A stretch of DNA of 64,000 nucleotides from an uncultured Methanosarcinales archaeon (GCA_964485195.1 CAZAIK010000004.1:33673-97672); one strand, 5' to 3'. Positions 1 through 39,190 are shown, counted from the first letter of the stretch. A program made the numbers and translations. Notes: a model not told the origin generated them from the sequence alone.

Positions 1-158
1 TTATTTTCTCCTTGTCAGGAAAATGAAGCTCTTGTGCAGCATCATCCTCTTCAGCCAGCCCAGGCTCAATCTTGAACGCAATTTCAGAAGTGGAGTGCTC
101 CTTGCCGGGCTCTTTTTGGAATATTTCAAGGATCTTGAACTCAGTATCATTCATTGTT
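1..158 (-). CDS. Partial CDS (3' end runs off the window). N-terminus MNDTEFKILEIFQKEPGKEHSTSEIAFKIEPG looks like a winged-helix/HTH domain.
   Basis: Reverse-complement ORF with ATG at 156-158 preceded by GGGGGTG (SD-like). HTH-like pattern. No stop codon inside the window. Confidence 0.35.
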
Positions 159-176
159 TCAGCACCCCCTGAAACA
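155..176. promoter_or_regulatory. Inverted repeat TGTTTCAG-N6-CTGAAACA overlapping the start of the minus-strand gene. Candidate Lrp/AsnC operator.
   Basis: Perfect 8-bp arms seen directly. A second copy lies at 221-241. Confidence 0.35.
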
Positions 177-190
177 ATATATATTGTTTT

Positions 191-200
191 TATATATAAA
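191..200. promoter_or_regulatory. TATA-like box (TATATATAAA) in the divergent intergenic region.
   Basis: AT-rich archaeal TATA consensus between divergent genes. Confidence 0.3.
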
Positions 201-220
201 TCTTTGCAATCCACTAGTTT

Positions 221-241
221 GTTTCAGAAAAATCCTGAAAC
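221..241. promoter_or_regulatory. Inverted repeat GTTTCAG-N7-CTGAAAC, second copy of the candidate operator.
   Basis: Perfect 7-bp arms, about 70 nt upstream of the Lrp start at 310. Confidence 0.35.
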
Positions 242-309
242 TTCAGAGATTCTTTATAAAAAAGGTTTATTTAGCAATTAACCTCACAAATAAGAATTCA
301 GGGGGTAAA

Positions 310-774
310 ATGCAGAACATGAACACAAAAGACTTGCAAATCATAGCCCATCTCAGGAATAACGCCCGCATGCCCCTCACGACCATGAGCAGGAAAACAA
401 GCATTCCAGTGTCGACGCTTTTTGACAGGCTCAAGGCAAATGAAAAGGAACTGATAACAAAGCACACAGCATTGATAGACTTCGCGAAACTGGGTTACGG
501 AATCAGGACAAGCATAGCGCTCAAAGCCGAAAGGGAAGACAAGGAAAAGCTAAAGCAGTTTCTGGTCAACCACCATTTAGTAAACTCAGTGTATAAGGTA
601 AGCAATGATTATGACTTCATACTGGAAGGAATATTCAGGGAGATAAAAGAAATGGAGCAGTTCTTTGATGATATGGAGAATTCATTCAGCATTTCTGACA
701 AAAAAATCTTGTTCATAACAGAAGACCTGAAAAGAGAGTCATTCCTCAGCGACCCCCGCCTGATATTCGGATAA
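310..774 (+). CDS. Lrp/AsnC-family transcriptional regulator (HTH plus RAM/ACT-like domain).
   Basis: N-terminal HTH segment (IIAHLRNNARMPLTTMSRKTSIPVSTLFDRLKANEKELI) followed by LIDFAKLGYGIRTSIALKAE, typical of the Lrp RAM domain. GGGGGTAAAATG ribosome-binding site. Confidence 0.8.
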   Translation: MQNMNTKDLQIIAHLRNNARMPLTTMSRKTSIPVSTLFDRLKANEKELITKHTALIDFAKLGYGIRTSIALKAEREDKEKLKQFLVNHHLVNSVYKVSNDYDFILEGIFREIKEMEQFFDDMENSFSISDKKILFITEDLKRESFLSDPRLIFG

Positions 775-902: not shown

Positions 903-1334
903 ATGGCGACAGAAAAAGAAAGACTATTGCTACAGCATCTGAGGCAGAATTCCCGGAAAAGCCTGACTAAGATAAGCAGGGAAACAGGCATTCCAGTGTC
1001 CACACTGTTTGACATTCTGAAAAGATTAGAGACGCGTTTCATACAAAAGCACGTTTCTCTCATTGATTTTTCAAAATTAGGATACGGGCTGAGAATAAAC
1101 TTTGCAATGAGCGCGAAAAAGAAAAAACAGCTGAAAGAATTCCTGATGAACCATCCAAACATAAATTCTTTATTCTCCTCAATTAACGGCCAGGATTTTT
1201 ACGCTGAATGCGTATTCAGAAGCCTGAAAGAATTCACTGAATTCAAGTCAGGGCTTGAACAGTTTGAAATGGAGAACGTGCAGGAAACATTTGTGGTGGA
1301 AGAGCTGAAAAGAGAGGGATTCATATTAAGCTAA
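903..1334 (+). CDS. Second Lrp/AsnC-family regulator, tandem paralog.
   Basis: LLQHLRQNSRKSLTKISRETGIPVSTLFDILKRLE ... LIDFSKLGYGLRINFAMSAKK, clearly paralogous to the 310..774 protein. Confidence 0.8.
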   Translation: MATEKERLLLQHLRQNSRKSLTKISRETGIPVSTLFDILKRLETRFIQKHVSLIDFSKLGYGLRINFAMSAKKKKQLKEFLMNHPNINSLFSSINGQDFYAECVFRSLKEFTEFKSGLEQFEMENVQETFVVEELKREGFILS

Positions 1335-1339
1335 AAAAA

Positions 1340-1939
1340 TCAGGCTTTTTTGAATGAGAAAAAATATGTTCTGTTGTTTGGATCATCCTGTATTCCTGAA
1401 ACAAGTATCTCCAGGTTTGGATAATCCTTAATGACATTTTCAGATGCTATTGCAGCGATATTGTTTGCACTTTCTTCGCTTACAGCCCTGGCAGCCTCCG
1501 AAGTTGTATAAGCCACTTTTTCACCGTTAACATAATAGGAAGTTATAAGTTTGGCAGAGCTTCTTCGGAGATATTCCGAGCACTGCTGCGCAGCTTTTGG
1601 GTGAGTTAGTGTTTCTTCAATGTCCCCTGTGCGCGCTCCCTTCAGCCCTATAATGTTCATCCTGACAGGTATGAGAAATTCGTCAACTTTCACTATTCTC
1701 TTGTCTCTCAAGGCAATGGAGTTCCCTGTCAATTCAAAATCAATAACCCTTTTTGTCTGCTCAACCGGTCCTGAGGACGAATTGAAATAAGGAAGGATTC
1801 CCTGATCGACTTCTTCATCAATAACTGACTGCAGCACTTGGCTGACATCTGAACAGAATAATGTTTCAGGCATTTTATACCTTTTCAACACAGCTTCTTC
1901 AGAGAAGCTTCCTTTTGGTCCCAGTGTCGCGATTTTCAT
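1340..1939 (-). CDS. Prephenate (or arogenate) dehydratase catalytic domain only. No ACT regulatory domain.
   Basis: MKIATLGPKGSFSEEA matches the PDT N-terminal motif. At 199 aa it ends before any ACT domain. Paralog of the full-length PheA at 7280. Confidence 0.7.
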   Translation of the reverse strand: MKIATLGPKGSFSEEAVLKRYKMPETLFCSDVSQVLQSVIDEEVDQGILPYFNSSSGPVEQTKRVIDFELTGNSIALRDKRIVKVDEFLIPVRMNIIGLKGARTGDIEETLTHPKAAQQCSEYLRRSSAKLITSYYVNGEKVAYTTSEAARAVSEESANNIAAIASENVIKDYPNLEILVSGIQDDPNNRTYFFSFKKA

Positions 1940-2025: not shown

Positions 2026-3711
2026 TTGTCGGGAATCCATTTTAATCAAAATAATAATTATTTTCTCATGGGGCACGAAACAATAAGGGACGTCAGAAAG
2101 CTTTTCCTCAACAGGGATAATATGGACGAATTCATTCGTTTAACAATCGGCGCCTTGACAGAGATGGTTAACTGGTATACCGGAATCGAGATTGAAAATA
2201 ATTTGAAGATTAATCCAGGCGATTACAAAAATGTGGGGGTGCACAATGGCTGTTCTGTTGAGGAGGCAGGCAAAAGAACAATAGAGCGGATACCGGAAGA
2301 GCTGCCAAAACAGCTGACTGAATCCTTAAACAGTGAACTTGAAGAGATAGTGAATTTCCTGAAAAACGAAATAAGGTTCAATGAGAATTTTATGGGCCAG
2401 ATGCACCCCTCCCAAAACATCGCTTCCTACGCTGCAGGAATAGCGGCTAAGTTTGTGAATGGAAATACCGTTACAGGCAGTGTTTCAAGGGCCACATCCC
2501 AGATTGAGCAAAACAGGGCAGTGCGTTGGCTTTGTGAAATTTTGGGGTATTCCCCTGAAAAAGCATCTGGCACCATTGTTTCAGGGGGGACAAAAGCAAA
2601 TTTAACAGCCCTGGTGATAGCAAGGAACCGTGCATTGTTCCATCTTCAGGAAATAAACAACGAACCGTTTGAGCAGTACCTGTTAACACCTGAGCAAATC
2701 CTGGATTTTAGCGAAAAAAGCTCTGCAATTATGGAAAACCACGGGGTTGCTAAAGTGGGAATGCAGGCGGTTAAGCCAAAGTGCGTCTTATACATGCCGG
2801 AAACAGCACATTACAGCCTTGTGCAGATACCCAATTTTATCGGGTTGGGAATTTCAAATATCAGGAAAATAAAAACAGACAAGAACCACAAAATAATAAT
2901 CCACGAGCTGACAAGACAGATAGAGCTGGACAAGTCAAGGGGAAATTACATAATAGGAATTATAGGTATTGCAGGAACAACAGAGGCGGGGGCTGTGGAT
3001 GACTTGGAATCTCTTGCAGGCATTGCTGAGGCATATAATCTTCACTTTCATATCGATGCGGCACATGGGGGTCCTTTCAGGATGGTGAGGCCAAACTTGT
3101 TCAAGGGGATGGAAAGGGCGGATACTATAACAGTAGACCCTCATAAAATGCTTTATTCACATTACAATGCGGGAGCTTTGCTTGTTAAGAACAAGGAATT
3201 CCTGAACCTGCTCAAGGCAAAAGCAGGATATCTGTTTGACAATGGTGTTTTAAACATAGGTGAGAACAGGATTGCCTGCTCAATGGGGCTGGAATCAGCC
3301 CTGCAAACATATGCTTCGCTGAAAGTTTTTGGTGAGGAAGGCTTGAAAGCACTTCTGAACCACAGCTTGGAGCTCACACAGAATTTTAAGAAGGTTATAG
3401 ATGCAGACAAAGACGAGGTGGGGAGGCACATCAAGCTTGTCAATCCCGAGCCGGACCTTAACCTGCTTTGTTTCAGGTATGAGAACACGGATTTAAGCAA
3501 AGAGGAACTGGACAGAATAAACAAGGAAGCCCAGCGCAGGCTTGAAGAGGAGGGAAAGTTCTATTTTTCAAGCGACAATATGAGCTACAGGCGGGGCATT
3601 GCAGTTCTCAGGGCTGTAATGATGAATCCCTTCACTACGGATGAAATTGTAAAATCGGCCTATGAGAGAACGAAGGACCTGATGTTGGAGGTGAAGAATG
3701 AGGGATTATGA
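2026..3711 (+). CDS. Group II pyridoxal-phosphate-dependent amino-acid decarboxylase, possibly aromatic/tyrosine decarboxylase-like. Unusually long at 561 aa.
   Basis: Motifs SGGTKANLTALVIARNR, HIDAAHGGPF and TVDPHKMLYSHY (PLP-lysine). The first codon is TTG; ATG at 2068 is an alternative start. The end overlaps the TyrRS start by 14 nt. Confidence 0.75.
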   Translation: MSGIHFNQNNNYFLMGHETIRDVRKLFLNRDNMDEFIRLTIGALTEMVNWYTGIEIENNLKINPGDYKNVGVHNGCSVEEAGKRTIERIPEELPKQLTESLNSELEEIVNFLKNEIRFNENFMGQMHPSQNIASYAAGIAAKFVNGNTVTGSVSRATSQIEQNRAVRWLCEILGYSPEKASGTIVSGGTKANLTALVIARNRALFHLQEINNEPFEQYLLTPEQILDFSEKSSAIMENHGVAKVGMQAVKPKCVLYMPETAHYSLVQIPNFIGLGISNIRKIKTDKNHKIIIHELTRQIELDKSRGNYIIGIIGIAGTTEAGAVDDLESLAGIAEAYNLHFHIDAAHGGPFRMVRPNLFKGMERADTITVDPHKMLYSHYNAGALLVKNKEFLNLLKAKAGYLFDNGVLNIGENRIACSMGLESALQTYASLKVFGEEGLKALLNHSLELTQNFKKVIDADKDEVGRHIKLVNPEPDLNLLCFRYENTDLSKEELDRINKEAQRRLEEEGKFYFSSDNMSYRRGIAVLRAVMMNPFTTDEIVKSAYERTKDLMLEVKNEGL

Positions 3712-4915
3712 GCTGGAGAGAATAATAGAGGAGCTTCAGAGGGGAGCTGTGGACTTCATCACGGACAAAGAGCTAGCTTGGAAATTCATCTCTGCTGAAA
3801 AGGAAAGGAGGTCTGTTGTTGTTAAATATGGTGTTGACCCCACTGCGCCTGAGGTACACATCGGCCATACCGTGACTTTGAGGAAATTAAGGCAGTTCCA
3901 GGATTTTGGCCAGCAAGTGACATTTTTGATAGGGGATTTTACCGCGAGAATTGGCGATCCTTCAGGAAAGGATGATGCAAGGAAGCCGATGACGGAAGAA
4001 GAGGTGGCTTCAAATGCAGAAACCTACAAAAAGCAGATATTCAAGATATTAAACCCTGAAAAAACAAACATCGTGTACAATAGTAGCTGGCTCAAACAGC
4101 TTATGCTTGAAAACTGCCTTAAGCTTTTGGGGAGCGGAACTATCAATGACCTGATAAAAAGGAGATCGTTTGCAAAAAGGTTTGAGGAAGGAAAGCCGGT
4201 GTCGGCAATAGAATTAGTATACCCTTTTCTGCAGGGCTACGACTCTGTTTTCTTGAATTCAGATGTTGAGGTAGGAGGAACAGACCAGTACTTCAACCTT
4301 GTTTTCGCGAGGGAATTGCAGAAAAAATATGGGCAGGAGCCTCAAGCAGTAATCACAATGCCCCTCCTTGAGGGGCTTGACGGCGACGAAAAGATGAGCA
4401 AGAGTCTTGGCAATCACGTGGGGATTGATGAGGACCCAAAAACAATGTATGCAAAAATAATGTCCTCAAATGACAGGGTGATGTTCAAGTATTTCAGGCT
4501 GCTCACCCAAATCCCCCTTTCAGATGTGGAGAAACTGGAAAAAGAGGTGGAAAAGGGAAGCTTACACCCGATGGATGTGAAGATGAAACTTGCTTTTGAT
4601 ATTGTTTCGCAGTATCATGGAAACCCGCAGGCTGGCCAGGCGCAGGAAGAGTTTATCAACATCCACAGGCACAAACAAACACCCTCCGAGATGCCGACAT
4701 ATTTCCTTGAATCGGGAAAGCCGGCAACCATAGCGGACGTACTGGTTGAGGGGGGCATTGCAAGCTCAAAAAGCCAGGCAAGAAGGCTGGTCCAGCAAAG
4801 AGGCGTGAGACTTAATAACATAACACTTGAAGATGCGGACAGGCCAATTGAGTTTGAAGACGGGGACACAATCAACGTAGGGAAAAGAAGGTATCTTCAG
4901 TTGAAGTATAAATAG
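3698..4915 (+). CDS. tyrS: Tyrosyl-tRNA synthetase, bacterial type, with a C-terminal S4-like RNA-binding domain.
   Basis: HIGH motif (PEVHIGHTV), KMSKS, FLIGDFTARIGDPSGK, LQGYD, and a C-terminal S4-like segment (SKSQARRLVQQRGVRLNN). 405 aa. Confidence 0.85.
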   Translation: MRDYELERIIEELQRGAVDFITDKELAWKFISAEKERRSVVVKYGVDPTAPEVHIGHTVTLRKLRQFQDFGQQVTFLIGDFTARIGDPSGKDDARKPMTEEEVASNAETYKKQIFKILNPEKTNIVYNSSWLKQLMLENCLKLLGSGTINDLIKRRSFAKRFEEGKPVSAIELVYPFLQGYDSVFLNSDVEVGGTDQYFNLVFARELQKKYGQEPQAVITMPLLEGLDGDEKMSKSLGNHVGIDEDPKTMYAKIMSSNDRVMFKYFRLLTQIPLSDVEKLEKEVEKGSLHPMDVKMKLAFDIVSQYHGNPQAGQAQEEFINIHRHKQTPSEMPTYFLESGKPATIADVLVEGGIASSKSQARRLVQQRGVRLNNITLEDADRPIEFEDGDTINVGKRRYLQLKYK

Positions 4916-5134: not shown

Positions 5135-5868
5135 ATGAAAAAGTCAGATATTTTGATTGTAGGAACAGGAATCGCAGGAAGCCTGGCAGCTTATGAACTC
5201 CAAAAAATAGGGATAGATTATACATTAATAACTGAACAGGCAAATCCCCTCAGAAATGTCTCCAGCCTGAGCTTCGGCCATTTCAGGATTGCACGCATTG
5301 GCGAACTGGAGCAGTTTGTGAAAAGATGTGTTTTTGAGTTGGGGGAGGATGAGGAAAAAATGATGCTGGTGTATTCCAACAGCCATCTGACCTCTAGATT
5401 ACTGGGTGAGTTGGGGATGCCATTTGAAAAAAGGAGTTTTGGAGTCATCCCCACAACAAAGGGAAGGGGAGGGGCGTGCTTGTTGGCGAAACAGTCAGAA
5501 AAGGCTCGTTTGTTGATGAAAACGGAAAAGCGGTATTTGACAGGAGAACAGAGAAAATGCTGAAGCAGGATAATTACCACGAAATATTTCCTCAGATAAC
5601 AGAGCGAATCAGAACAAGGGAAAAACAAGGCCACAAGGTTTATTTTATGCAAGGGGATAATATGATTCCCATAACCCCCTATGTTCATTACACTGCGGGA
5701 GGGATTAAAACAGACAGGCTAGGCAGGGTTGAAGGGTGTGAAGACCTTTTTGCAGTGGGTGAATGCCAGGCCAACGGATTCAAAAACAACGGCAGGCTTC
5801 CTGGATATCCCTTCACATCCGCGGTTGTTTACTCAAAAATCCTGGCAGAATATTTCAGTAAGATTTAA
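5135..5868 (+). pseudogene. Frameshifted, miniature FAD-dependent oxidoreductase related to L-aspartate oxidase / succinate dehydrogenase flavoprotein.
   Basis: ORF 5135..5563 carries the N-terminal DILIVGTGIAGSLAAYEL FAD-binding site. ORF 5476..5868 in another frame carries HYTAGGI and LFAVGECQANG...NNGRLPGY. The capping domain is missing; the two pieces total about 245 aa against roughly 500 expected. Confidence 0.5.
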
Positions 5869-6037: not shown

Positions 6038-6162
6038 CCTCGCTTAGCTCAACGGCAGAGCGTTCGGCTGTAGAAAACACAAGACAAGGTCCCTTATGGG
6101 GTGAGAATGAAATGTGTTCAGCTGATACCGAAAGGTTGCCAGTTCAAATCTGGCAGCGGGGA
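6038..6162 (+). tRNA. tRNA-Tyr (anticodon GUA) with a 53-nt intron at the canonical 37/38 position (6074..6126). C1-G72 pair and A73 discriminator.
   Basis: Cloverleaf folded by hand. Acceptor CCTCGCT/AGCGGGG, D-stem GCTC/GAGC, anticodon stem TTCGG/CCGAA, loop CTGTAG|A, T-arm GCCAG-TTCAAAT-CTGGC. Confidence 0.75.
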
Positions 6163-6177: not shown

Positions 6178-6450
6178 ATGGAGCTGAAAGAAATAAGAGA
6201 GCACCTGGACAGGCTGGACAATGCGCTTGTCTGGATTTTGGCAGAAAGGATGAGTTTTATTCCGAAGGTTGCGGAATTTAAAGCAAAAAACAAGATGGAG
6301 AGGTACCAGCCCGAGAGGGAAAAGGCAATTCTGGAATCAAAGAAAAAACTGGCAGAACAGCAGGGGGTTAATCCGGCTTTGGCAGAGGGCCTGTTCAAAA
6401 GGATTATAGAGGACGCCCACCGCATCGAAGAGGGAATAATAGGAAAATGA
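6178..6450 (+). CDS. Chorismate mutase, AroQ class.
   Basis: MELKEIREHLDRLDNALVWILAERMSF is the typical CM motif. Starts 16 nt after the tRNA-Tyr 3' end. Its stop overlaps the next start. Confidence 0.8.
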   Translation: MELKEIREHLDRLDNALVWILAERMSFIPKVAEFKAKNKMERYQPEREKAILESKKKLAEQQGVNPALAEGLFKRIIEDAHRIEEGIIGK

Positions 6451-7283
6451 GGCCAGAAACAATCTCAATCATCGGCGGAACCGGCAAGATGGGCAGTATG
6501 TTCAGGAACATCTTTGAGAAAGAAGGATACAAAGTTGTTGTTAGCGGAAAAAACACAGAGATAAGCCCTGAAGAGGCAGCTGCCAAAGGAGATGTTGTAA
6601 TAGTCACGGTTCCCATAAGGAAGACAATCGAAACAATCAAGAAAATAGGGCCCCATGTTAAAAAAGAAGCTCTCCTGACTGATTTTACCTCAGTGAAGGT
6701 GGAGCCTGTCAAGGTAATGCTTGAGAGTTCTGAAGCAGATGTCATTGGGGGGCATCCTGTTTTCGGCCCCACGGTTAAACTGAAGGGACAGTATTATGTC
6801 TTATGCCCTGCCCGGGGAGAACGATACCTTGGCTGGTTCAAGGGATTTCTGGAAGGGAGGGGTTGCAAGGTAATCATCAAGACCCCAGAAGACCATGACA
6901 AGACTATGGGGATAATCCAGTGCTTAACCCATCTGAGTGTAATTGCAATGGGAGGGGTTTTAAAGAGTATGAACATCGATATAGGTAAAACACTTGAGCT
7001 TGCATCCCCAATCTACAAGATGAGAATAGGAATAGTGGGAAGGATACTCAATCAGGACCCCGAACTTTACTCCGACATCCAGATTTACAACTCAAGCTCT
7101 ATGGAGATAGGAGAGGAATACAAAAAATCAATTGAAAAGCTCCTGAAGATAATTGAAGCAAGGGACTTGCAGGCATTTGACAGGTTTTTCAAAGAAGCGA
7201 AAGAATATCTTGGGGACTTTTGCAAACAGGCGCAGGAGGAAAGCGATTATATGCTTAAAAAACTGGCTGAGAGGGAAAAGTGA
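6447..7283 (+). CDS. tyrA: Prephenate dehydrogenase.
   Basis: N-terminal Rossmann motif IIGGTGKMGSMF. GGHPVFGP. Overlaps its neighbours by 4 nt on both sides. Confidence 0.8.
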   Translation: MRPETISIIGGTGKMGSMFRNIFEKEGYKVVVSGKNTEISPEEAAAKGDVVIVTVPIRKTIETIKKIGPHVKKEALLTDFTSVKVEPVKVMLESSEADVIGGHPVFGPTVKLKGQYYVLCPARGERYLGWFKGFLEGRGCKVIIKTPEDHDKTMGIIQCLTHLSVIAMGGVLKSMNIDIGKTLELASPIYKMRIGIVGRILNQDPELYSDIQIYNSSSMEIGEEYKKSIEKLLKIIEARDLQAFDRFFKEAKEYLGDFCKQAQEESDYMLKKLAEREK

Positions 7284-8104
7284 AAACAGGTACATTAGGG
7301 CCCAGGGGAAGCTTCAGCGAAATTGCTGCCAGGAGGCATGATAAACAAACAGAAATTGTTTTCTTCAGGCATATCTATGAGATTTTTGATGCTGTTAGAA
7401 ATGCAGAGGTTGATGAGGGTGTAGTTCCCATTGAAAATATGATTGAAGGCACGGTCAGGGAAGTGCTTGACAGGTTGTATGAGAACGACTTGAAAATCAT
7501 CAAGGAAGTGATCGTTCCGATACACCACTGCCTGGCAGCCCAATCTGATGATTTCAGCAAAATAATCTCGCACCCCCAGGCACTGGCACAGTGCTCTGTT
7601 TTTCTGAAGCAGCATAAGGAAAAATATGTTGAAGTGGAAGAAACAACAAGCACCTCAAAAGCCATGGAGATTGCTGGGGAAAATCTGGAATGCGCAGCCA
7701 TTGGCTCTCCAAGGGCGGCAGAGTTGAATAACCTCAAAATTATAGGCACAGAGATTGAGAATAACGAGAGAAATGCAACAAGATTTATCATAATCAGCAG
7801 GACCCAGGAGGAAAGAAAACAGGAAGACGCGAAGTTCAAAACGAGCATAGCGCTGCATCCTGCTGAAGACCGCCCGGGCCTTTTGTTTGATATTCTCGCT
7901 ATCTTTAAAATACAAAATGTCAACCTCACAAAAATAGAGTCAAGGCCCACTGAAAAAAAGCTGGGGGAGTACATATTTTACATTGACTTTGAAGGACATC
8001 GGCAGGATGAAAATATAAAACCTGTAATAGATTTCTTAAAATCAATTGTTCCAACCATAAAAATATTCGGGAGCTATGAAACAGAGAATGACAGTCAGCA
8101 ATAA
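7280..8104 (+). CDS. pheA: Prephenate dehydratase with a C-terminal ACT domain.
   Basis: TLGPRGSFSE, HPQALAQC, and a C-terminal ACT domain (GLLFDILAIFKIQNVNLTKIESRP). GTG start. Confidence 0.85.
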   Translation: MKTGTLGPRGSFSEIAARRHDKQTEIVFFRHIYEIFDAVRNAEVDEGVVPIENMIEGTVREVLDRLYENDLKIIKEVIVPIHHCLAAQSDDFSKIISHPQALAQCSVFLKQHKEKYVEVEETTSTSKAMEIAGENLECAAIGSPRAAELNNLKIIGTEIENNERNATRFIIISRTQEERKQEDAKFKTSIALHPAEDRPGLLFDILAIFKIQNVNLTKIESRPTEKKLGEYIFYIDFEGHRQDENIKPVIDFLKSIVPTIKIFGSYETENDSQQ

Positions 8105-9185
8105 AGTAAGGAATATGGACCTGAGCGGCGTCAGAAAAATGTTTGAGATGGCATCTAGTATTGAAAACCCTGTCAGCTTAACGATAGGCGAGCCTGATTT
8201 TGACATTCCTGAAAATGTAAAGCAAAAGGCAATAGAGGCAATTAAAAAGGGAAACACAAAATACACTCCCACAACAGGAATCGTCGAATTGAGGAGAGCT
8301 CTGCTGGAAAAACTCAAGAGCGAAAATAATATCACTGTTGGCGAGGAACAGCTCATAGTAACTTCAGCTGCTTCAGGGGCCCTGTCAATAATCCTTACAA
8401 CAATTCTGGAAGAAGGGGATGAAGTTATCATACCTGACCCTTATTTTGTGGCATACAAGCATCTTGTAATACAGAATGAGGCAACCCCCGTATTCGTGCA
8501 TTCAAAAAAGGATTTTTCGCTTAATCTTGAGAAAATAAAAGCAGCAATCAACAGTAAAACAAAGGCAATTTTGATTAATTCTCCCAATAATCCCGCAGGA
8601 AAGGTTTACTCGAAGGAGGAATTAGGAAAACTTGCTGAAATTGCGCGGGAAAACAACCTGCTTATAATCTCGGATGAGATTTATGAGAAATTTGTATTTG
8701 ACAAAAAGCATTTCAGCGTAGGCAGCATTTATGAGAACACAATAACAATAAATGGATTTTCAAAATCCCATGCAATGACAGGCTCAAGAGTTGGCTATTG
8801 TGTTGGGCCAAAGGGAATAATCCAAAACGCAATAAAGGTCCAGCAGGTCAATTTTGTGTGCGCGCCCACAGCGTTTCAGTATGCAGCAATAGAGGCATTA
8901 AAAACTCCTGTGGATAAAGAGCGGGAAGAGTACAGGAAAAGAAGGGATATGATTTATGAAGGGCTGAAAGGCAAGTACGAGATGGTGAAGCCCGAAGGAG
9001 CATTTTACGCTTTTGTAAAATACCCCTACAGGGGCGATAAATTTGTCAGGGACTGCCTTGAAAAAAATCTCCTGGTAGTTCCAGGAAAAACATTCTCAGA
9101 AAAAGATAGTCATTTCAGGATATCGTTTGCAGCAAGCCGGGAAACAATAAAGAAAGGGATAGAAATACTTAATTCCCTTATTTAA
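8076..9185 (+). CDS. Class I aminotransferase (aspartate/aromatic aminotransferase family).
   Basis: LTIGEPDFDIPENV, NSPNNPAGKVY, and SKSHAMTGSRVGY carrying the PLP-lysine. Confidence 0.85.
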   Translation: MKQRMTVSNKVRNMDLSGVRKMFEMASSIENPVSLTIGEPDFDIPENVKQKAIEAIKKGNTKYTPTTGIVELRRALLEKLKSENNITVGEEQLIVTSAASGALSIILTTILEEGDEVIIPDPYFVAYKHLVIQNEATPVFVHSKKDFSLNLEKIKAAINSKTKAILINSPNNPAGKVYSKEELGKLAEIARENNLLIISDEIYEKFVFDKKHFSVGSIYENTITINGFSKSHAMTGSRVGYCVGPKGIIQNAIKVQQVNFVCAPTAFQYAAIEALKTPVDKEREEYRKRRDMIYEGLKGKYEMVKPEGAFYAFVKYPYRGDKFVRDCLEKNLLVVPGKTFSEKDSHFRISFAASRETIKKGIEILNSLI

Positions 9186-15199: not shown

Positions 15200-16687
15200 A
15201 TGGCAGAGGGAAAGGAATCAGAGGCTTCTGTGATCAGGGACAGGTACAGGAAGCTGGAAGAATTGAAAAAAAAGGGGATAAATCCTTATCCTTACAGTTT
15301 CAACAGGAAAGACACTGCATCAGAACTTCTTGCAAAATTTGACAAAAAGCTGAAGGCAGGAGACCATACCAACAGCAGGGCGGTTGTTGCAGGGAGGGTT
15401 ATGGCAAAGCGGGAAATGGGCAAGCTGACTTTCTCGCACTTGCAGGATTCCACAGGAAGAATCCAGATCCTGCTGAAAAGGGACAATGACAAGGATATGC
15501 ATGAACTTTTCAGGCTCTTTGACATAGGCGACATAATAGGTGTCAAGGGAAAGGTTTTCAAGACAAAAACAGGGGAGCTCACAGTAGAGGCTGAAAGCGT
15601 ATCCCTGCTTTCCAAATCACTATACCCCCTGCCGGAAAAGTATCACGGCATTCACGACACGGAGTTAAAATACAGGAGGAGAAGCCTGGACCTGATAATG
15701 GACCCACAGGCGAAGGAGGTTTTCAGGAAGAGGGCAGAGATATACAAGGCAATAAGGGAATTCCTTGAAAAGAATGGTTTTATGGAAGTGCACATACCTA
15801 TTCTGCAGCCGCAGTACGGGGGGGCAAATGCAAGGCCTTTCATGACAAAGATTAATGCCTGGGACATGAATGTTTATCTCAGGATAGCCTATGAAATCCA
15901 CCTGAAAAGGCTTCTGGTCGGGGGCTTTGAGAAAATATATGCCCTGGGCTCCTGCTTCAGGAATGAGGGTGTTGACAAGACGCACAACCCGGAGTTTTCA
16001 ATGATGGAAATACAGTGGGCGTACAGGGACTACAAAGACGCGATGAAACTGACAGAGGAGTTGTGGAATTATGTTGCCAAGAAAGTGCTGGGCAAGACGA
16101 CAATAGAGTATCAGGGAAAAAAGATTGACTTGAAGCCGCCCTGGGAGAGAATAACAGTGAAGGATGCAATCAAGAAGTATGCTGACATTGATGTTGACAA
16201 ACTGACTGATGAGGAACTGAAGGAATTGTTCATAACATACAACCTGAGCATAGAGGGAGACCTCACAAGAGGGGAAATAATAACAGCTCTGTTTGAGGAA
16301 CTGGTTGAGGACAAATTAACAAAACCAACACAGGTCATAGACCATCCCAGGGAGTCAAGCCCGCTTGCAAAGCCCCACAGGGAAAACCCCGAGCTTGTGG
16401 AAAGGGTGGAGCCGTTCATCAACGGCTGGGAAGTGGGCAACTGCTATTCTGAATTGACAGACCCTGTCCTGCAAAGGAAACTGCTGGAAGAGCAGGTTGA
16501 GAAAGGAAGGGGCGGTGATGAAGAGGCCCACCCGATGGATGAGGATTTCATAAGGTCCCTGGAATACGGGCTCCCTCCAAATGTGGGGATAGGAATAGGT
16601 ATTGACAGGATGGTAATGCTCCTGACAAATGCCAAAAGCATAAGGGATGTCATACTGTTTCCGATGATGAAGCCAGAGGGAGATTAA
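15200..16687 (+). CDS. lysS: Lysyl-tRNA synthetase, class II.
   Basis: N-terminal OB fold followed by the class II core (CFRNEGVDKTHNPEFSMMEIQWAY) and motif 3 (GIGIGIDR). Confidence 0.9.
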   Translation: MAEGKESEASVIRDRYRKLEELKKKGINPYPYSFNRKDTASELLAKFDKKLKAGDHTNSRAVVAGRVMAKREMGKLTFSHLQDSTGRIQILLKRDNDKDMHELFRLFDIGDIIGVKGKVFKTKTGELTVEAESVSLLSKSLYPLPEKYHGIHDTELKYRRRSLDLIMDPQAKEVFRKRAEIYKAIREFLEKNGFMEVHIPILQPQYGGANARPFMTKINAWDMNVYLRIAYEIHLKRLLVGGFEKIYALGSCFRNEGVDKTHNPEFSMMEIQWAYRDYKDAMKLTEELWNYVAKKVLGKTTIEYQGKKIDLKPPWERITVKDAIKKYADIDVDKLTDEELKELFITYNLSIEGDLTRGEIITALFEELVEDKLTKPTQVIDHPRESSPLAKPHRENPELVERVEPFINGWEVGNCYSELTDPVLQRKLLEEQVEKGRGGDEEAHPMDEDFIRSLEYGLPPNVGIGIGIDRMVMLLTNAKSIRDVILFPMMKPEGD

Positions 16688-17442: not shown

Positions 17443-18399
17443 CTAAACACAATTTAGCATAACTGCCTTTGAAATGTCTGATATTTTTGCATTCAGGGTT
17501 TTGAAATTTTCCATGAGGATTACAAACTGCTTGTTGATTGTGGAGTTCCCGTTCTGCAGGAATTCATCACATTTTTCGTATATCTCCGGCTTTGTTGTCT
17601 CTATCTCACAGGCCACGTTCATGTCCTTGCCGTAATAGGCTTTCATAGAACTCAGGTATCTTGATTTAATCTTGTTGAATAACTCTGAGACTTCAGCAAG
17701 GCTTTTCTCATCAAGTTTGAGACCTGCCAGGCACTTGCTGATTCTCTTGATGCTGTCACCTATTTTTTCCATGCGAAGCGAAACCTCCCAGTCAAGAAGG
17801 ACGTCCTTTGGTTCTGTTTCAAACATCTTTGAAATCTTTTGGTCTTCAAGGGCGGCGGTTATCATACGCCTTACAAGCCAGGTCAGCCTGTTCACATCTT
17901 CATCCCTGTCATAGATGCTTTTTACAGTCTGTTTTCCGATTTTTGTCACGGCATCGTCTGTCATGGACCTTATTATTATGTCTATCCTCCTCATCAAGGC
18001 TTTTATCGAAACTTCCTTTACATTTATGAGGTCTTTTGTTATAATCTTGTCTGAAGTCTGTTCAAGAATCTCAAGCCCGGCAAGGTTCTGGACAAGTTCC
18101 TTTACCTTGACAAGGTTGTCCTCGTCAAGCTGCCTTATTTCTATGATGTTGTAATTATTAAGGTAGGCCGCGATAAGCTCGCATCTGATAACACCGTAAG
18201 ACTTGTTTGCGCCGTCAATCTGCTTCTCCTTGATCTCCTTTTCCCTGTCAGAGCGCGCAGAGGTTATGACCAGCTCATTTGGCTTCTCTTCAATGTAGAG
18301 AGGGTCCCCTTTCTCCAGCTTATTGCCTGAAATCCAGTTTTTGGGCAGAGAAATAACATATGACGAACTTCCAAAACTGATTAGCTTTCTTGTCTCCAA
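17443..18399 (-). CDS. PhoU-like regulator with an N-terminal AbrB/SpoVT-type swapped-hairpin domain.
   Basis: KLISFGSSSYVISLPKNWI is an AbrB-like motif. The remainder is alpha-helical and PhoU-like. Confidence 0.55.
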   Translation of the reverse strand: METRKLISFGSSSYVISLPKNWISGNKLEKGDPLYIEEKPNELVITSARSDREKEIKEKQIDGANKSYGVIRCELIAAYLNNYNIIEIRQLDEDNLVKVKELVQNLAGLEILEQTSDKIITKDLINVKEVSIKALMRRIDIIIRSMTDDAVTKIGKQTVKSIYDRDEDVNRLTWLVRRMITAALEDQKISKMFETEPKDVLLDWEVSLRMEKIGDSIKRISKCLAGLKLDEKSLAEVSELFNKIKSRYLSSMKAYYGKDMNVACEIETTKPEIYEKCDEFLQNGNSTINKQFVILMENFKTLNAKISDISKAVMLNCV

Positions 18400-19468: not shown

Positions 19469-21166
19469 TTGATGGAAGAGTTCAAAAAAGAGATTATAAG
19501 AACAGTAGGCAAAATTGTCAATGCAACAGATTCCATGCTTGAGATTCCGCCGGACTCTTCAATGGGAGACTTGGCATTGCCTTGCTTTTCATTTGCAAAG
19601 GACCTGAAGAAAAACCCGGCAGACATAGCGAAAAAGATAGAAGAGGAGGCCAGTCCGGGAGAGTTAATAGAGGAAATCAAGGCATTCGGGCCTTATGTCA
19701 ATTTCTTCATCAACAAGGAAAAGCTTGCGGAATTGACACTGAAGGACATTGTGAAATTAAAGCATTCTTACGGAAAGTCACTGACGGGAAAGGGAAAAAC
19801 CATAATGGTGGAATACTCATCCCCCAGCCTCAACAAGCCCCAGCACCTGGGGCACGTTAGAAACAACGTGCTGGGCTTCTCACTTTCAAGAATCTTTGAA
19901 TTCTCCAGCTACAAGGTGATAAAGGCCAACCTGATGAATGACAGGGGAATCCACATCTGCCAGTCCATGCTTGCCTATAAGGAGTGGGGCGAGAACAAGG
20001 AGCCTGACAAGAAGCCCGACCATTTCGTGGGGGGCTTCTATGTGATGTTCCACAACAATGTGAAAGAAAAGCCAGAGCTTCAGGAAAAGGCCCAGCAAAT
20101 GCTCAGGAAATGGGAGCAGGGCGATAAGGAGATACTGGCCTTGTGGAAAAAGATGAACAACTGGGTCTACAAGGGATTCCAGGAAACCTACAACAGCCTG
20201 GGAGTGGATTTTGACATTTATTATCACGAATCTGAATTTTACCACAAGGGGAAGAAAATCATTGATGAATCCCTGAAAAAAGGCCTGCTGAAAAAGAGCA
20301 AGAACGGTGCTATATACGCAGACCTTGAGGAATTCGGGCTTCCTGAAAAATATGTTTTGAGAGCTGACGGCACAACTGTTTACACAACCCAGGACATTTA
20401 CCTTGCAAAGCTGAAATTTGAACAGTATGACCTGGACAAATCCCTCTATGTCGTAGCAAGCGAGCATAACCTGTATCTTCAGCAGCTTTTCGCCATACTG
20501 AAAAAGATGGGTTTTGGCTTTGCTGACAAGTGCTACCACAGGACATACGGCATGGTTTTTCTCCCTGAAGGAAAGATGAAGTCAAGGGAAGGAACTGTTG
20601 TTGACGCTGATGACAGCATAGGAAGGATGAAAGGGCTGGCAAAAGAGGAAGTTGAAAAGCGGTACGAAAAACTGGGGGAAAAGGAAAAAGACAGGAGAGC
20701 CAAAGCAATAGGGTTGGCAGGGCTAAAGTTTTACATGCTGAAGCAGGATCCGGTGAAGGATATCTATTTTGACCCGAGGGAGTCCATTTCCTTTGAGGGG
20801 GAAACCGGCCCTTACATCCAGTACGCATTTGCCAGGATTTGCTCCATATTGAGAAAATTCGGAAAGCCGATAAACGAAAACATTGATTTTTCCCTGGTGA
20901 AAAAAGAGGAGGAGATAAACTTGATAAAGCATTTGGACTTGTTTTACACTGCTGTGGAAGAGTCAGCAAAGCACTATGACCCTTCCAAAATCGCGCATTA
21001 TCTTACAGGCCTTGCCCAGATGTTCAATAATTTTTACCATAACTGTCCTGTGCTCTCTGAAAGGGAGGACCTTAAAAAAGCGCGCCTCTTGCTGGCATAC
21101 TGCACAAAGCAGGTGCTTGGGAACGGCATCTCACTGCTGGGGATTGAAACCCTGGAAGAGATGTAG
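19469..21166 (+). CDS. argS: Arginyl-tRNA synthetase.
   Basis: SSPSLNKPQHLGHVRNNVLG (HIGH region), a class I core, and a C-terminal DALR-like anticodon-binding domain. Confidence 0.9.
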   Translation: MMEEFKKEIIRTVGKIVNATDSMLEIPPDSSMGDLALPCFSFAKDLKKNPADIAKKIEEEASPGELIEEIKAFGPYVNFFINKEKLAELTLKDIVKLKHSYGKSLTGKGKTIMVEYSSPSLNKPQHLGHVRNNVLGFSLSRIFEFSSYKVIKANLMNDRGIHICQSMLAYKEWGENKEPDKKPDHFVGGFYVMFHNNVKEKPELQEKAQQMLRKWEQGDKEILALWKKMNNWVYKGFQETYNSLGVDFDIYYHESEFYHKGKKIIDESLKKGLLKKSKNGAIYADLEEFGLPEKYVLRADGTTVYTTQDIYLAKLKFEQYDLDKSLYVVASEHNLYLQQLFAILKKMGFGFADKCYHRTYGMVFLPEGKMKSREGTVVDADDSIGRMKGLAKEEVEKRYEKLGEKEKDRRAKAIGLAGLKFYMLKQDPVKDIYFDPRESISFEGETGPYIQYAFARICSILRKFGKPINENIDFSLVKKEEEINLIKHLDLFYTAVEESAKHYDPSKIAHYLTGLAQMFNNFYHNCPVLSEREDLKKARLLLAYCTKQVLGNGISLLGIETLEEM

Positions 21167-39103: not shown

Positions 39104-39190
39104 GGCGGTAATAGTTTAGTGGCAGAATACAGGACTGTGGCAGAATACTGCGGAAATCCTGTGGCCCGGGTTCGATTCCCGGTTACCGCC
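39104..39190 (+). tRNA. tRNA-His (anticodon GUG) with a genome-encoded G-1, a C73 discriminator, and a 15-nt intron (39141..39155).
   Basis: Hand-folded. Acceptor GCGGTAA/TTACCGC, G-1 at 39104 pairs with C73. Anticodon stem CAGGA/TCCTG, loop CTGTGG|A. T-arm CCGGG-TTCGATT-CCCGG. Confidence 0.7.

What the first reader, a model, noticed from the sequence alone, without database searches (positions are those of the whole stretch)
2026..4915. Long group II PLP decarboxylase translationally coupled to a bacterial-type TyrRS, resembling the tyrDC-tyrS tyramine operon
The 561-aa group II decarboxylase (SGGTKANL, HIDAAHGG, DPHK motifs) overlaps by 14 nt a 405-aa TyrRS with an S4 C-terminal domain. Archaeal TyrRS is normally short and lacks the S4 domain, so this is a bacterial architecture. 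In lactic acid bacteria a tyrS paralog is genetically linked to tyrosine decarboxylase for tyramine production. Finding the same pairing here, embedded in a tyrosine biosynthesis locus, points to horizontal acquisition of a Tyr decarboxylase/TyrRS module and possibly tyramine formation.
Basis: partly seen in the sequence, partly recalled or inferred. Interest (0 to 1): 0.65.

Follow-up and report, generated by a model that had tools for sequence, protein, structure and literature searches.

The report
Archaeal decarboxylase–TyrRS–tRNA-Tyr gene module
A PLP-dependent amino-acid decarboxylase is fused into one operon with a bacterial-style tyrosyl-tRNA synthetase next to an archaeal-style tyrosine tRNA, and the same pairing recurs across a whole group of tiny uncultured (DPANN/Woesearchaeota-like) archaea, so it is a real, conserved and so far undescribed tyrosine-handling module rather than a copy of the lactic-acid-bacterial tyramine operon.

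Summary
A group II PLP decarboxylase (2026/2068..3711) overlaps by 14 nt a 405-aa bacterial type-2 TyrRS with an S4 domain (3698..4915). A perfect GGAGGTGA Shine-Dalgarno sequence sits 3 nt before the TyrRS ATG.

The host is an archaeon. The TyrRS belongs to a 23-member clade (NJ bootstrap 60/60); every member with context (10 of 23) is archaeal. So the bacterial origin is old, not a recent imported module. The decarboxylase is not TdcA, MfnA or PanP. It belongs to a small orphan clade of about 14 representatives among 1.84 billion proteins.

New findings:
- In 9 of 11 clade loci the decarboxylase lies directly upstream of this TyrRS, in at least four different flanking contexts.
- In a tenth locus it sits beside tRNA-Tyr and an archaeal-type TyrRS.
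- Intron-bearing tRNA-Tyr(GUA) genes with archaeal identity (C1-G72, no long variable arm) lie nearby in six loci, including window 6038..6162.
- A Methyltransf_32 gene often follows the TyrRS.
- None of 78 bacterial TyrRS loci has such a decarboxylase.

Most likely this is a lineage-specific tyrosine-handling operon: a probable tyrosine decarboxylase plus the cell's working TyrRS. It resembles tyrS–tdcA by analogy, not homology. The substrate, and whether this is the only TyrRS, are untested.

The parts
154..774 (+). Lrp/AsnC-family transcriptional regulator. The true start is probably internal, near MQNMNTKD.
   Evidence: NCBIfam Lrp model 53.3 bits, below its cutoff. Lrp/AsnC regulators sit upstream of the decarboxylase in L004, L006, L165, L167 and L170, and upstream of the TyrRS in L005.
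903..1334 (+). Second Lrp/AsnC-like HTH regulator
   Evidence: PF13412 HTH_24 and weak Lrp matches. The closest relative, L005, has the same two-regulator arrangement.
1340..1939 (-). Prephenate-dehydratase-domain protein without an ACT domain, transcribed divergently from the decarboxylase
   Evidence: PF00800 122 bits. A 202-aa PDT gene holds the same position in L005.
2026..3711 (+). Group II PLP-dependent amino-acid decarboxylase of an orphan archaeal clade. It is 561 aa from TTG 2026, or 547 aa from ATG 2068. Catalytic residues in 547-aa numbering: H248, D330, K360, Y388.
   Evidence: PF00282 170 bits. No NCBIfam equivalog cutoff is reached. Clade defined by HMMER. AlphaFold2 model pLDDT 87.4. 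Invariant residues.
3687..3694 (+). Shine-Dalgarno sequence GGAGGTGA for the TyrRS, lying inside the end of the decarboxylase gene
   Evidence: Read directly from the sequence. It lies 3 nt before ATG 3698.
3698..4915 (+). Bacterial type-2 tyrosyl-tRNA synthetase with an S4-like C-terminal domain. Motifs: HIGH at residue 54, KMSKS at 232, LQGYD at 178, GGTDQ at 193.
   Evidence: TIGR00234 370.5 bits, cutoff 113.8. Pfam domains. PDB neighbours. Motif positions and clade tree.
6038..6162 (+). tRNA-Tyr (anticodon GUA) with a 53-nt intron after position 37. It has C1-G72, A73 and a 5-nt variable loop, which is the archaeal identity set.
   Evidence: Rfam RF00005 52.2 bits. Sequence read. ARAGORN missed it.
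6178..6450 (+). Chorismate mutase (AroQ type). The likely start is ATG 6178, 16 nt after the tRNA, preceded by GGAGGT at 6166-6171.
   Evidence: PF01817 70.7 bits. Sequence. The mechanical ORF start at 6112 lies inside the tRNA.
6447..7283 (+). Prephenate dehydrogenase (TyrA)
   Evidence: PDH_N 74.9 bits and PDH_C 67.5 bits.
7280..8104 (+). Prephenate dehydratase with an ACT domain (PheA)
   Evidence: NF008865 265.7 bits, cutoff 219. PDT and ACT domains.
8076..9185 (+). Class I/II aminotransferase, a candidate aromatic/aspartate aminotransferase
   Evidence: PF00155 233 bits. Archaeal aspartate aminotransferase model 338 bits, below its cutoff of 550.

Best explanation
This is a lineage-specific tyrosine-handling operon of a DPANN (Woesearchaeota-like) archaeal group.

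The first gene encodes a catalytically intact group II PLP decarboxylase from a small orphan clade. The second, translationally coupled gene encodes a bacterial type-2 TyrRS. An ancestor of this archaeal group acquired that TyrRS long ago. It most probably replaced the archaeal enzyme at the same locus and now charges the neighbouring archaeal-type tRNA-Tyr (C1-G72, no long variable arm).

Because the decarboxylase stays next to TyrRS and tRNA-Tyr through many rearrangements, and whichever type of TyrRS is present, its substrate is most likely L-tyrosine or a close aromatic analogue, giving tyramine. The two enzymes would draw on one tyrosine pool and be co-expressed under the adjacent Lrp/AsnC-type amino-acid regulators. 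In this window the Tyr/Phe terminal biosynthesis genes lie next door. The arrangement works like the tyrS-tdcA pairing of lactic acid bacteria but arose independently from different protein families.

Shown: gene identities, coupling, conservation of the pairing, clade structure and tRNA identity elements.
Inferred: the substrate, the role of the amine, that this is the sole working TyrRS, and the regulation.
For: 1. Identities and coupling.

2. The decarboxylase clade is small and distinct. By HMMER against 1.84 billion representatives, its core members (including the three query sequences) score 430-991 bits, an outer tier (full-length P0246, P0248-P0251 plus the 286-aa fragment P0247) scores 328-366, and generic group II enzymes score 306 or less.

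3. The decarboxylase lies immediately upstream of the bacterial-type TyrRS, on the same strand, between a 14-nt overlap and a 44-nt gap, in nine loci: the window, L004, L006, L165, L167, L168, L170, L172 and L173. The flanks differ. In L168 the pair sits inside the rpoA2-L30e-NusA-S12-S7 cluster.

4. L169 has the decarboxylase, a TK0271 family transcriptional activator homologue, tRNA-Tyr, and then the N-terminus of an archaeal-type TyrRS. That fragment scores 53.6 bits on NF006330 against 23.8 on the bacterial model, and its best PDB match is 2cyc (an archaeal-type TyrRS chain), residues 1-56.

5. tRNA-Tyr(GUA) genes with introns and C1-G72 lie within about 5 kb in six loci.

6. The TyrRS clade of 23 sequences has NJ bootstrap 60/60, and decarboxylase-linked members sit on both deep branches. 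The HxGH, KMSK[ST], LQ[AG][YF]D and GGxDQ motifs are conserved across the clade.

7. None of 78 bacterial TyrRS loci has the decarboxylase.

8. Precedents exist. Cognate aaRS genes sit in the tyramine and histamine clusters of lactic acid bacteria (PMC3315439). Human mitochondrial TyrRS charges C1-G72 and G1-C72 tRNAs equally and keeps its S4 domain although its tRNA lacks the long variable arm (PMC5370408).
Against: - The substrate is inferred from context alone. By sequence, the nearest named families use small charged substrates. All 14 clade members score best on PanP (window protein 197 bits; best member E 4.9e-79, against a cutoff of 606 bits), then on DABA decarboxylase. The best solved-structure matches are 8zpi, Sphaerobacter 4rit, GAD67 and GADL1, all ahead of TyrDC or MfnA.
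- The fold search does not discriminate between substrates.
- No amino-acid/amine antiporter appears in any locus, so the energy-yielding scheme of lactic acid bacteria is not supported, and no use for tyramine is evident.
- Two clade members lack an adjacent bacterial-type TyrRS (L002, L169). The closest relative of the window (L005, TyrRS 68% identical) has the TyrRS and the aromatic genes but no decarboxylase there.
- I could not scan any complete genome for a second TyrRS. Only the 64-kb window and the flanks of each locus were checked.
Confidence: 0.5

Rival explanations
1. The decarboxylase acts on a non-aromatic substrate, for example aspartate to beta-alanine (PanP-like) or 2,4-diaminobutyrate or glutamate. 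Its linkage to TyrRS would then reflect co-regulation or a physical or regulatory partnership, not a shared substrate.
For: PanP is the best NCBIfam match for all 14 clade members, followed by DABA decarboxylase. PanP-like proteins of 540-553 aa are the nearest outgroup to the clade profile. The best PDB sequence matches are 8zpi, 4rit, GAD67, GADL1 and the 2qma DABA decarboxylase. Some loci add a DoeB-like N-acetyl-DABA deacetylase homologue and a GCS2 carboxylate-amine ligase.
Against: Identity to these families is only about 26-31%, and every score is far below the family cutoff. My own knowledge is that substrate specificity in group II decarboxylases is commonly not conserved at that distance. 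No CoA, ectoine or polyamine pathway genes were seen in the loci. The linkage to TyrRS and tRNA-Tyr holds in 10 of 11 loci and with both TyrRS types, and this idea does not explain it.
Confidence: 0.25
2. The bacterial-type TyrRS is an accessory paralogue dedicated to the module, like tyrS-1 of Enterococcus faecalis. A normal archaeal TyrRS elsewhere in the genome would do the housekeeping charging.
For: The TyrRS and decarboxylase clades are similar in size and almost always co-occur: 9 of the 10 TyrRS-clade loci examined carry the decarboxylase. That pattern fits a co-inherited accessory module. In lactic acid bacteria the cluster-linked tyrS forms its own clade and co-evolves with tdcA (PMC3315439). 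I could not search any complete genome.
Against: L169 carries an archaeal-type TyrRS in the equivalent neighbourhood and no bacterial-type one on that 4.5-kb contig, which fits replacement rather than coexistence. The only tRNA-Tyr genes seen nearby are ordinary archaeal ones. In L168 the pair sits inside the core RNA polymerase/ribosomal operon. The catalytic and tyrosine-binding motifs are intact across the clade. L005 keeps the TyrRS without the decarboxylase.
Confidence: 0.2
3. One reading: a tyrosine decarboxylase/TyrRS tyramine module, homologous to tyrS-tyrDC of lactic acid bacteria, was acquired horizontally as a unit.
For: The TyrRS is bacterial in type. The nearest relatives of the decarboxylase outside its clade are mostly bacterial. 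The pairing resembles TDC clusters.
Against: The TyrDC model scores 107.5 bits against a cutoff of 905.3. The TyrRS is type 2 with KMSKS, not the type-1 KFGKT enzyme of lactic acid bacteria. The gene order is reversed, there is no T-box and no TyrP antiporter. The TyrRS falls in a clade with 60/60 support whose context-checked members are all archaeal. None of 78 bacterial TyrRS loci has the decarboxylase. G+C content is flat and the locus is syntenic with relatives.
Confidence: 0.05
4. The decarboxylase and the frequently co-linked Methyltransf_32 protein are partners of the decoding system itself. They might form a complex with TyrRS, or make or modify something specific to tRNA-Tyr or Tyr-tRNA, perhaps connected with adapting a bacterial TyrRS to an archaeal tRNA.
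For: The gene order decarboxylase-TyrRS-methyltransferase is fixed, with overlapping or abutting genes. tRNA-Tyr lies directly downstream in L006 and L169. The methyltransferase has no informative relatives.
Against: I know of no chemistry that links a PLP alpha-decarboxylase to a tRNA or an aminoacyl-tRNA, because these enzymes need a free alpha-carboxylate. The window itself lacks the methyltransferase. L169 has the decarboxylase alongside an archaeal-type TyrRS, so adaptation of a foreign enzyme cannot be the whole story.
Confidence: 0.1

Closest known systems
Tyramine (TDC) cluster of lactic acid bacteria: tyrS-tdcA-tyrP-nhaC (Enterococcus, Lactobacillus brevis)
   Same: A group II PLP decarboxylase gene lies next to a TyrRS gene. 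The cluster-linked TyrS forms its own clade and co-evolves with the decarboxylase. Both enzymes use one tyrosine pool (PMC3315439).
   Different: - The protein families differ. TdcA is a TIGR03811 enzyme, and the archaeal protein scores 107.5 bits against a cutoff of 905.3. The TyrS of lactic acid bacteria is type 1 with KFGKT, and the archaeal enzyme is type 2 with KMSKS.
- The gene order is opposite, and here the genes are translationally coupled.
- There is no T-box leader and no Tyr/tyramine antiporter.
- The regulators are Lrp/AsnC proteins.
- A tRNA-Tyr gene, and often a Methyltransf_32 gene, are part of the neighbourhood.
- The host is an archaeon.
Bacterial type-2 TyrRS (TyrZ/Thermus thermophilus type; PDB 1h3e, 6byq, 6bqy)
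   Same: The full architecture matches: Rossmann catalytic domain, helical domain and S4-like C-terminal domain. HIGH, KMSKS and the tyrosine-binding motifs are present. PDB matches score 287-344 bits, and identity to many bacterial enzymes is 44-50%.
   Different: It is encoded in archaea. The neighbouring cognate tRNA has C1-G72 and a 5-nt variable loop, not G1-C72 and a long variable arm. About 10 of the 23 clade members no longer give an S4 Pfam hit.
CPR bacteria with archaeal-type TyrRS and C1-G72 tRNA-Tyr (Mukai et al. 2017, PMC5370408)
   Same: A cross-domain replacement of TyrRS in an ultra-small uncultured lineage. It raises the same question of how tRNA identity rules are met.
   Different: The direction is reversed: here a bacterial enzyme is in archaea. 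In the CPR bacteria the tRNA-Tyr carries the C1-G72 identity that matches the imported archaeal enzyme, often on a bacterial V-arm scaffold. Here the tRNA keeps the host's archaeal identity, so the imported bacterial enzyme must accept it, as human mitochondrial TyrRS does. That paper does not report a linked decarboxylase.
PanP (PLP-dependent aspartate 1-decarboxylase, TIGR03799) and MfnA (archaeal Tyr/Asp decarboxylase, TIGR03812)
   Same: Same fold and catalytic residues. PanP is the best-scoring named family and has a similar length (about 540-550 aa). MfnA is the known archaeal tyrosine decarboxylase.
   Different: Scores of 197 and 158 bits fall far below the cutoffs of 606 and 299. The clade separates cleanly from both in the HMMER ranking. 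No CoA or methanofuran pathway genes were seen in the loci.

Membership tests
Group II PLP-dependent decarboxylase (Pfam PF00282) | Match to the family HMM above the gathering score | tested here: met
   170 bits against a cutoff of 27, E 8.6e-50. The AlphaFold2 model matches group II decarboxylase structures with Foldseek probability 1.00 and TM-scores of about 0.7-0.86.
Group II PLP-dependent decarboxylase (Pfam PF00282) | Catalytic residues: Schiff-base Lys in [DN]PHK, Asp to the pyridine N, stacking His, and catalytic-loop Tyr | tested here: met
   K360 (DPHK), D330 (HIDAAHGG), H248 and Y388 are invariant in a 27-sequence alignment. The roles are assigned by homology to DDC, from my own knowledge.
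Enterococcal/lactobacillal tyrosine decarboxylase TdcA (NCBIfam TIGR03811) | Equivalog HMM score at or above the curated cutoff | tested here: not met
   107.5 bits against 905.3, and only residues 120-352 align. All 14 clade members are below the cutoff.
Tyramine (TDC) operon of lactic acid bacteria | Adjacent tyrosine/tyramine antiporter (TyrP) and a T-box leader on tyrS | tested here: not met
   No T-box at the Rfam gathering threshold in the window. No amino-acid permease appears among the Pfam-annotated neighbours in any of the 11 loci.
Archaeal tyrosine/aspartate decarboxylase MfnA (TIGR03812) | Equivalog HMM score at or above the curated cutoff | tested here: not met
   158 bits against 299.4. 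The MfnA structure 3f9t scores only 106 bits against the clade profile.
PLP-dependent aspartate 1-decarboxylase PanP (TIGR03799) | Equivalog HMM score at or above the curated cutoff | tested here: not met
   197 bits for the window protein and 255 bits for L173, against a cutoff of 606.1. It is the best-scoring named family but far below membership.
Bacterial-type tyrosyl-tRNA synthetase (TIGR00234), type 2 | Equivalog HMM above cutoff, HIGH and KMSKS motifs, tyrosine-binding motifs, S4-like C-terminal domain | tested here: met
   370.5 bits against 113.8. HIGH at residue 54, KMSKS at 232, LQGYD at 178, GGTDQ at 193. S4 31.5 bits against 22.8 and SYY_C 35.1 against 27. The nearest structures are type 2.
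Bacterial-type tyrosyl-tRNA synthetase (TIGR00234), type 2 | Cognate tRNA-Tyr of bacterial identity (G1-C72, long variable arm) | tested here: not met
   All six neighbouring tRNA-Tyr genes have C1-G72 and A73. The five read through the variable region have a 5-nt loop; the L170 variable region, beyond a long intron, was not parsed. Whether the enzyme charges them was not tested.
Archaeal-type TyrRS (NF006330) | Equivalog HMM above cutoff; short enzyme without an S4 domain | tested here: not met
   109.9 bits against 220. The protein is 405 aa and has an S4 domain.
Housekeeping (sole) TyrRS of the organism | No other TyrRS gene in the genome | not testable with these tools
   Only the 64-kb window and the flanks of each locus could be searched, and they hold no second TyrRS.

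The most novel reading that the evidence does not exclude
A clade of DPANN archaea has swapped its TyrRS for a bacterial type-2 enzyme that must charge an archaeal-identity tRNA-Tyr (C1-G72, no long variable arm). This decoding pair is locked into a conserved island with an orphan PLP decarboxylase and an uncharacterised methyltransferase, and those two are functional partners of TyrRS and tRNA-Tyr. They could form a complex or pathway that gates tyrosine between translation and an amine product, or perform new tRNA-Tyr-related chemistry, rather than being an ordinary catabolic decarboxylase that happens to sit next door.
Probability: 0.15. Interest if true: 0.8.

Novelty: new variant of a known kind. 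Interest (0 to 1): 0.6.

Why it matters
TyrRS and tRNA-Tyr are the textbook case of domain-specific tRNA identity. That incompatibility is the basis for orthogonal pairs in genetic-code expansion.

The reverse exception is known: CPR bacteria that use archaeal TyrRS (PMC5370408). I found no report of archaea that use a bacterial, S4-bearing TyrRS with a tRNA-Tyr that has C1-G72 and no long variable arm. If this is their only TyrRS, these enzymes are natural variants with relaxed or re-targeted acceptor-stem recognition and a C-terminal domain with no long variable arm to bind. That can be tested directly in vitro.

Separately, an orphan decarboxylase stays fused to the TyrRS operon across deep divergence, and with either TyrRS type. 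This is an independent second invention of the cognate aaRS plus amino-acid decarboxylase arrangement known from the tyramine and histamine clusters of lactic acid bacteria, whose logic is still unsettled. The archaeal version is simpler, with translational coupling and no transporter, and may help explain why cells couple the two. It could also point to amine production, possibly tyramine, in DPANN symbionts.

Tried and rejected
Searches that gave nothing useful:
- The metagenome-contig scan with the clade alignment was swamped by generic group II decarboxylases.
- The third word-indexed protein search, run with the clade profile, added no new clade members.
- An exact look-up of the window's decarboxylase found no contig on record. 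Cluster look-ups gave no organism names.
- The window's own genome is not among the GTDB representatives scanned.
- The Foldseek search of the AlphaFold2 model against the PDB ranks Sphaerobacter 4rj0, 8zpi, DfoJ, GADL1, R. gnavus TrpDC, GAD67, AADC and TyrDC almost equally. It cannot assign a substrate.
- I tried to reason about pocket residues from sequence alignment alone and abandoned it as unreliable at about 20% identity without coordinates.
- PDB and NCBIfam searches with the Methyltransf_32 protein gave only marginal generic methyltransferase hits.
- Literature searches found no prior description: Woesearchaeota plus TyrRS, DPANN plus TyrRS, bacterial-type TyrRS in archaea, and 8ZPI.
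- tblastn found no second TyrRS and no Methyltransf_32 gene in the window.

Ideas considered and rejected:
- Homology to the TDC cluster of lactic acid bacteria.
- MfnA identity.
- A recent horizontally transferred island. G+C is 0.43-0.44 here, within a window range of 0.40-0.47.
- T-box control.
- Bacterial contamination of the contig. Archaeal markers lie on both sides.

Full report
**1. Observation**

Both ORFs exist as described.
- The decarboxylase ORF runs 2026..3711, giving 561 aa from a TTG start. The first ATG is at 2068 and gives 547 aa, the form recorded for this protein in NCBI (P0001).
- The TyrRS ORF runs 3698..4915, giving 405 aa.
- They overlap by 14 nt. A perfect GGAGGTGA sits at 3687-3694, 3 nt before the TyrRS ATG, so translational coupling is plausible.
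- Pfam gives PF00282 at 170 bits for the first ORF. For the second it gives PF00579 at 262 bits plus S4 and SYY_C-terminal, both above their cutoffs.
- NCBIfam places the TyrRS in the bacterial-type family (TIGR00234, 370.5 bits, cutoff 113.8) and not the archaeal one (NF006330, 109.9 bits, cutoff 220).
- The decarboxylase reaches no equivalog cutoff: PanP 197/606, MfnA 158/299, DABA decarboxylase 142/900, enterococcal TyrDC 107.5/905.
- The catalytic residues H248, D330, K360 and Y388 are invariant among 27 aligned relatives.

**2. Host and neighbourhood**

The window is archaeal. It has three intron-bearing tRNAs, FttA/aCPSF1, an S-layer protein, and several aaRS genes. G+C content is flat across the region.

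The genes around the pair are:
- two Lrp/AsnC-type regulators upstream (154..774 and 903..1334);
- a prephenate-dehydratase-only paralogue, divergently transcribed (1340..1939, minus strand);
- downstream, a split FAD-binding ORF, then chorismate mutase, TyrA, PheA and an aminotransferase.

It is tRNA-Tyr(GUA) with a 53-nt intron after position 37. It has C1-G72, A73 and a 5-nt variable loop, which is the archaeal identity set. It ends 16 nt before the likely chorismate mutase start (ATG 6178, preceded by GGAGGT).

**3. The TyrRS**

Its nearest solved structures are type-2 bacterial enzymes: 6byq at 344 bits, 6bqy at 311 and T. thermophilus 1h3e at 287. Type-1 enzymes (S. aureus, B. stearothermophilus) score 122-135 bits, and archaeal enzymes 84 bits or less.

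In the protein database, the closest relatives at 50-68% identity include sequences labelled Candidatus Woesearchaeota. Bacterial sequences (Atribacteria, Aminicenantes, Abyssubacteria and others) follow at 44-50%.

I built a neighbour-joining tree of 122 sequences over 403 columns. It gives a 23-member clade with 60/60 bootstrap support. The clade holds the window's enzyme and every TyrRS that I could place in an archaeal context. The HxGH, KMSK[ST], LQ[AG][YF]D and GGxDQ motifs are conserved throughout the clade.

The C-terminal domain is the least conserved part, slightly more so than in the bacterial set. About 10 of the 23 clade members no longer give an S4 Pfam hit.

**4. The decarboxylase**

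Word-indexed search found only two relatives above 31% identity. Exhaustive HMMER against 1.84 billion representatives shows a small, distinct clade of long proteins (547-628 aa). Core members, including the three query sequences, score 430-991 bits and an outer tier scores 328-366. Scores then drop to 306 or less for generic group II enzymes.

PanP-like proteins are the nearest outgroup. The best solved-structure matches are 8zpi, Sphaerobacter 4rit, GAD67 and GADL1, ahead of L. brevis or E. faecalis TyrDC (132-135 bits) and MfnA (106 bits).

The AlphaFold2 model is confident (pLDDT 87.4, pTM 0.89). The exception is an insertion specific to the window's protein, around residues 190-237. The fold search cannot discriminate between substrates.

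**5. Conservation of the pairing (the main new result)**

| Locus | Arrangement |
|---|---|
| Window | Lrp, Lrp, PDT (minus strand), DC, TyrRS (14-nt overlap), FAD ORFs, tRNA-Tyr, CM, TyrA, PheA, aminotransferase |
| L004 (Woesearchaeota) | Lrp, Lrp, DC, TyrRS, Methyltransf_32 |
| L006 (Woesearchaeota SURF_58) | Lrp, DC (34% identical), TyrRS (55%), Methyltransf_32, tRNA-Tyr |
| L165 | DC, TyrRS, Methyltransf_32 |
| L167 | DC, TyrRS (4-nt overlap), AsnC (minus strand), tRNA-Tyr |
| L168 | Pair inserted in the rpoA2-L30e-NusA...S12-S7 cluster, followed by an AstE/AspA homologue and a GNAT |
| L170 | DC, TyrRS (overlap), Methyltransf_32; tRNA-Tyr nearby |
| L172 | DC, TyrRS, Methyltransf_32, AstE/AspA, GCS2 ligase |
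| L173 | DC, TyrRS, Methyltransf_32, AstE/AspA, GCS2 ligase |
| L002 | DC without an adjacent TyrRS |
| L169 | DC, 93-aa TK0271 family transcriptional activator homologue, tRNA-Tyr, GNAT, HD protein, then at the contig end the first 57 residues of an archaeal-type TyrRS |

DC = the decarboxylase.

The L169 fragment scores 53.6 bits on NF006330 against 23.8 on the bacterial model. Its best PDB match is 2cyc (an archaeal-type TyrRS chain), residues 1-56.

So the decarboxylase is linked to TyrRS and tRNA-Tyr in 10 of 11 loci, whichever type of TyrRS is present. The closest relative of the window (L005, TyrRS 68% identical) keeps Lrp-Lrp-PDT(minus)-TyrRS-Methyltransf_32, tRNA-Tyr, TyrA and chorismate mutase, but has no decarboxylase there. 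None of 78 bacterial TyrRS loci has a homologue of the decarboxylase within 10 kb.

The decarboxylases share only 31-41% identity and the flanks differ in at least four ways. Persistence of the pair is therefore better explained by functional coupling than by inherited gene order.

**6. Interpretation**

*Shown:*
- a catalytically intact group II decarboxylase is co-operonic with a catalytically intact bacterial type-2 TyrRS;
- the pairing is conserved across an archaeal clade and was probably present in its ancestor, because linked members lie on both deep branches of the TyrRS tree;
- archaeal-identity tRNA-Tyr genes belong to the same neighbourhood.

*Inferred:*
- The substrate is tyrosine or a close aromatic analogue. 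This rests on context, and on the precedent that biogenic-amine clusters in lactic acid bacteria carry the cognate aaRS gene (tyrS with tdcA, hisS with hdc; PMC3315439).
- The bacterial-type TyrRS displaced an archaeal one in place and is the working enzyme. L169 shows the presumably older state.
- A bacterial-type enzyme can serve a C1-G72 tRNA without a long variable arm. The human mitochondrial enzyme does so (PMC5370408).

Against the tyrosine assignment, the nearest named families use Asp, DABA or Glu. Some loci carry a DoeB-like deacylase and a carboxylate-amine ligase. No transporter and no downstream use for tyramine is evident. I put tyrosine or an aromatic substrate at about 0.5.

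**7. Comparison with known systems**

The module works like the tyrS-tdcA pairing of lactic acid bacteria but is not a member of that system. The decarboxylase family is different. The TyrRS subtype is different (KMSKS type 2 here, KFGKT type 1 there). The gene order is opposite. There is no T-box and no antiporter.

It mirrors the CPR bacteria that use archaeal TyrRS (PMC5370408). In four literature searches I found no description of archaea with a bacterial TyrRS, or of this gene pair.

**8. Verdict**

Correct points: bacterial-type TyrRS in an archaeon, a meaningful pairing, and possible tyramine formation. Unsupported points: homology to tyrDC-tyrS and recent acquisition as a module.

Novelty: a new variant of a known kind, namely an independently evolved aaRS-decarboxylase module plus a cross-domain TyrRS replacement.

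The main open points are the decarboxylase substrate and whether a second TyrRS exists. Neither could be tested with the tools available.

Noticed in passing
window 6038..6162 and 6178..6450; L005 15296..15420: The intron-bearing tRNA-Tyr gene ends 16 nt before the likely start of the chorismate mutase-TyrA-PheA-aminotransferase operon. In L005 a tRNA-Tyr likewise sits directly in front of the prephenate dehydrogenase gene. This suggests possible co-transcription or a regulatory link between tRNA-Tyr and tyrosine biosynthesis. ARAGORN missed the tRNA, and the mechanical ORF start of chorismate mutase (6112) lies inside it.
   Followed up: partly
window 5135..5563 and 5476..5868: An FAD-binding oxidoreductase is split into two overlapping frames. 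The N-terminal piece is DAO/FAD_binding_2-like and the C-terminal piece matches only the last ~75 positions of FAD_binding_2. Together they total about 245 aa, too short for a normal family member. The Logan-assembled contig L001 (run SRR7048220), identical over the region it covers, shows the same split. It may be a pseudogene or a minimal two-piece flavoprotein.
   Followed up: partly
window 1340..1939 (-); L005 9244..9852 (-): A prephenate-dehydratase-domain protein without the ACT regulatory domain is conserved next to the TyrRS in both the window and its closest relative. The window also has a full-length PheA (7280..8104). The role of this paralogue is unknown.
   Followed up: no
L004 12823..13425, L005 11223..11819, L006 11163..11741, L165 9014..9610, L170 5077..5637, L172 4753..5349, L173 9253..9849: A ~190-200-aa Methyltransf_32 (PF13679) protein directly follows the TyrRS, often overlapping it, in seven loci. 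It has invariant Cys, His and Asp residues (CxG, HxCG, CC motifs) and no informative PDB or NCBIfam relatives. It is absent from the window.
   Followed up: partly
L172 5569..7729; L173 9990..12190; L168 6109..7619; L169 3077..3697: Several module loci add an AstE/AspA-family deacylase (best match DoeB, 75 bits), a GCS2 carboxylate-amine ligase and/or a GNAT acetyltransferase. L005 has a GNAT, an MR_MLE racemase and an M20 peptidase. This hints at N-acyl or gamma-glutamyl conjugation of the amino acid or amine.
   Followed up: no
L168 164..8746: The decarboxylase-TyrRS pair is inserted between NusA/KH and S12-S7 in the conserved archaeal RNA polymerase/ribosomal protein cluster.
   Followed up: no
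L169 4314..4484: A fragment at the contig end encodes the first 57 residues of an archaeal-type TyrRS. It lies 1.76 kb downstream of a clade decarboxylase, with tRNA-Tyr and a TK0271 family transcriptional activator homologue between them.
   Followed up: yes
window 2635..2780 approx. (residues ~190-237 of the 547-aa decarboxylase): The window's decarboxylase has an insertion of about 34-45 aa that is absent from P0002 and P0003 and is modelled with low confidence (pLDDT 50-57).
   Followed up: no
window 17443..18399 (-): A 318-aa protein has only an N-terminal MazE/AbrB-like domain hit. Homologues of 308-320 aa flank the TyrRS module in L004, L005, L167 and L173, so this is a lineage-typical neighbour of unknown function.
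   Followed up: no
window 15200..16687, 19469..21166, 39105..40794, 48853..48943: The window is rich in translation genes: a class II Asp/Asn/Lys-type aaRS, ArgRS, an intron-bearing tRNA-Ala(GGC) next to HisRS, and an intron-bearing tRNA that ARAGORN mis-called with a 4-base anticodon. By eye that last one is tRNA-Gln(CUG).
   Followed up: partly
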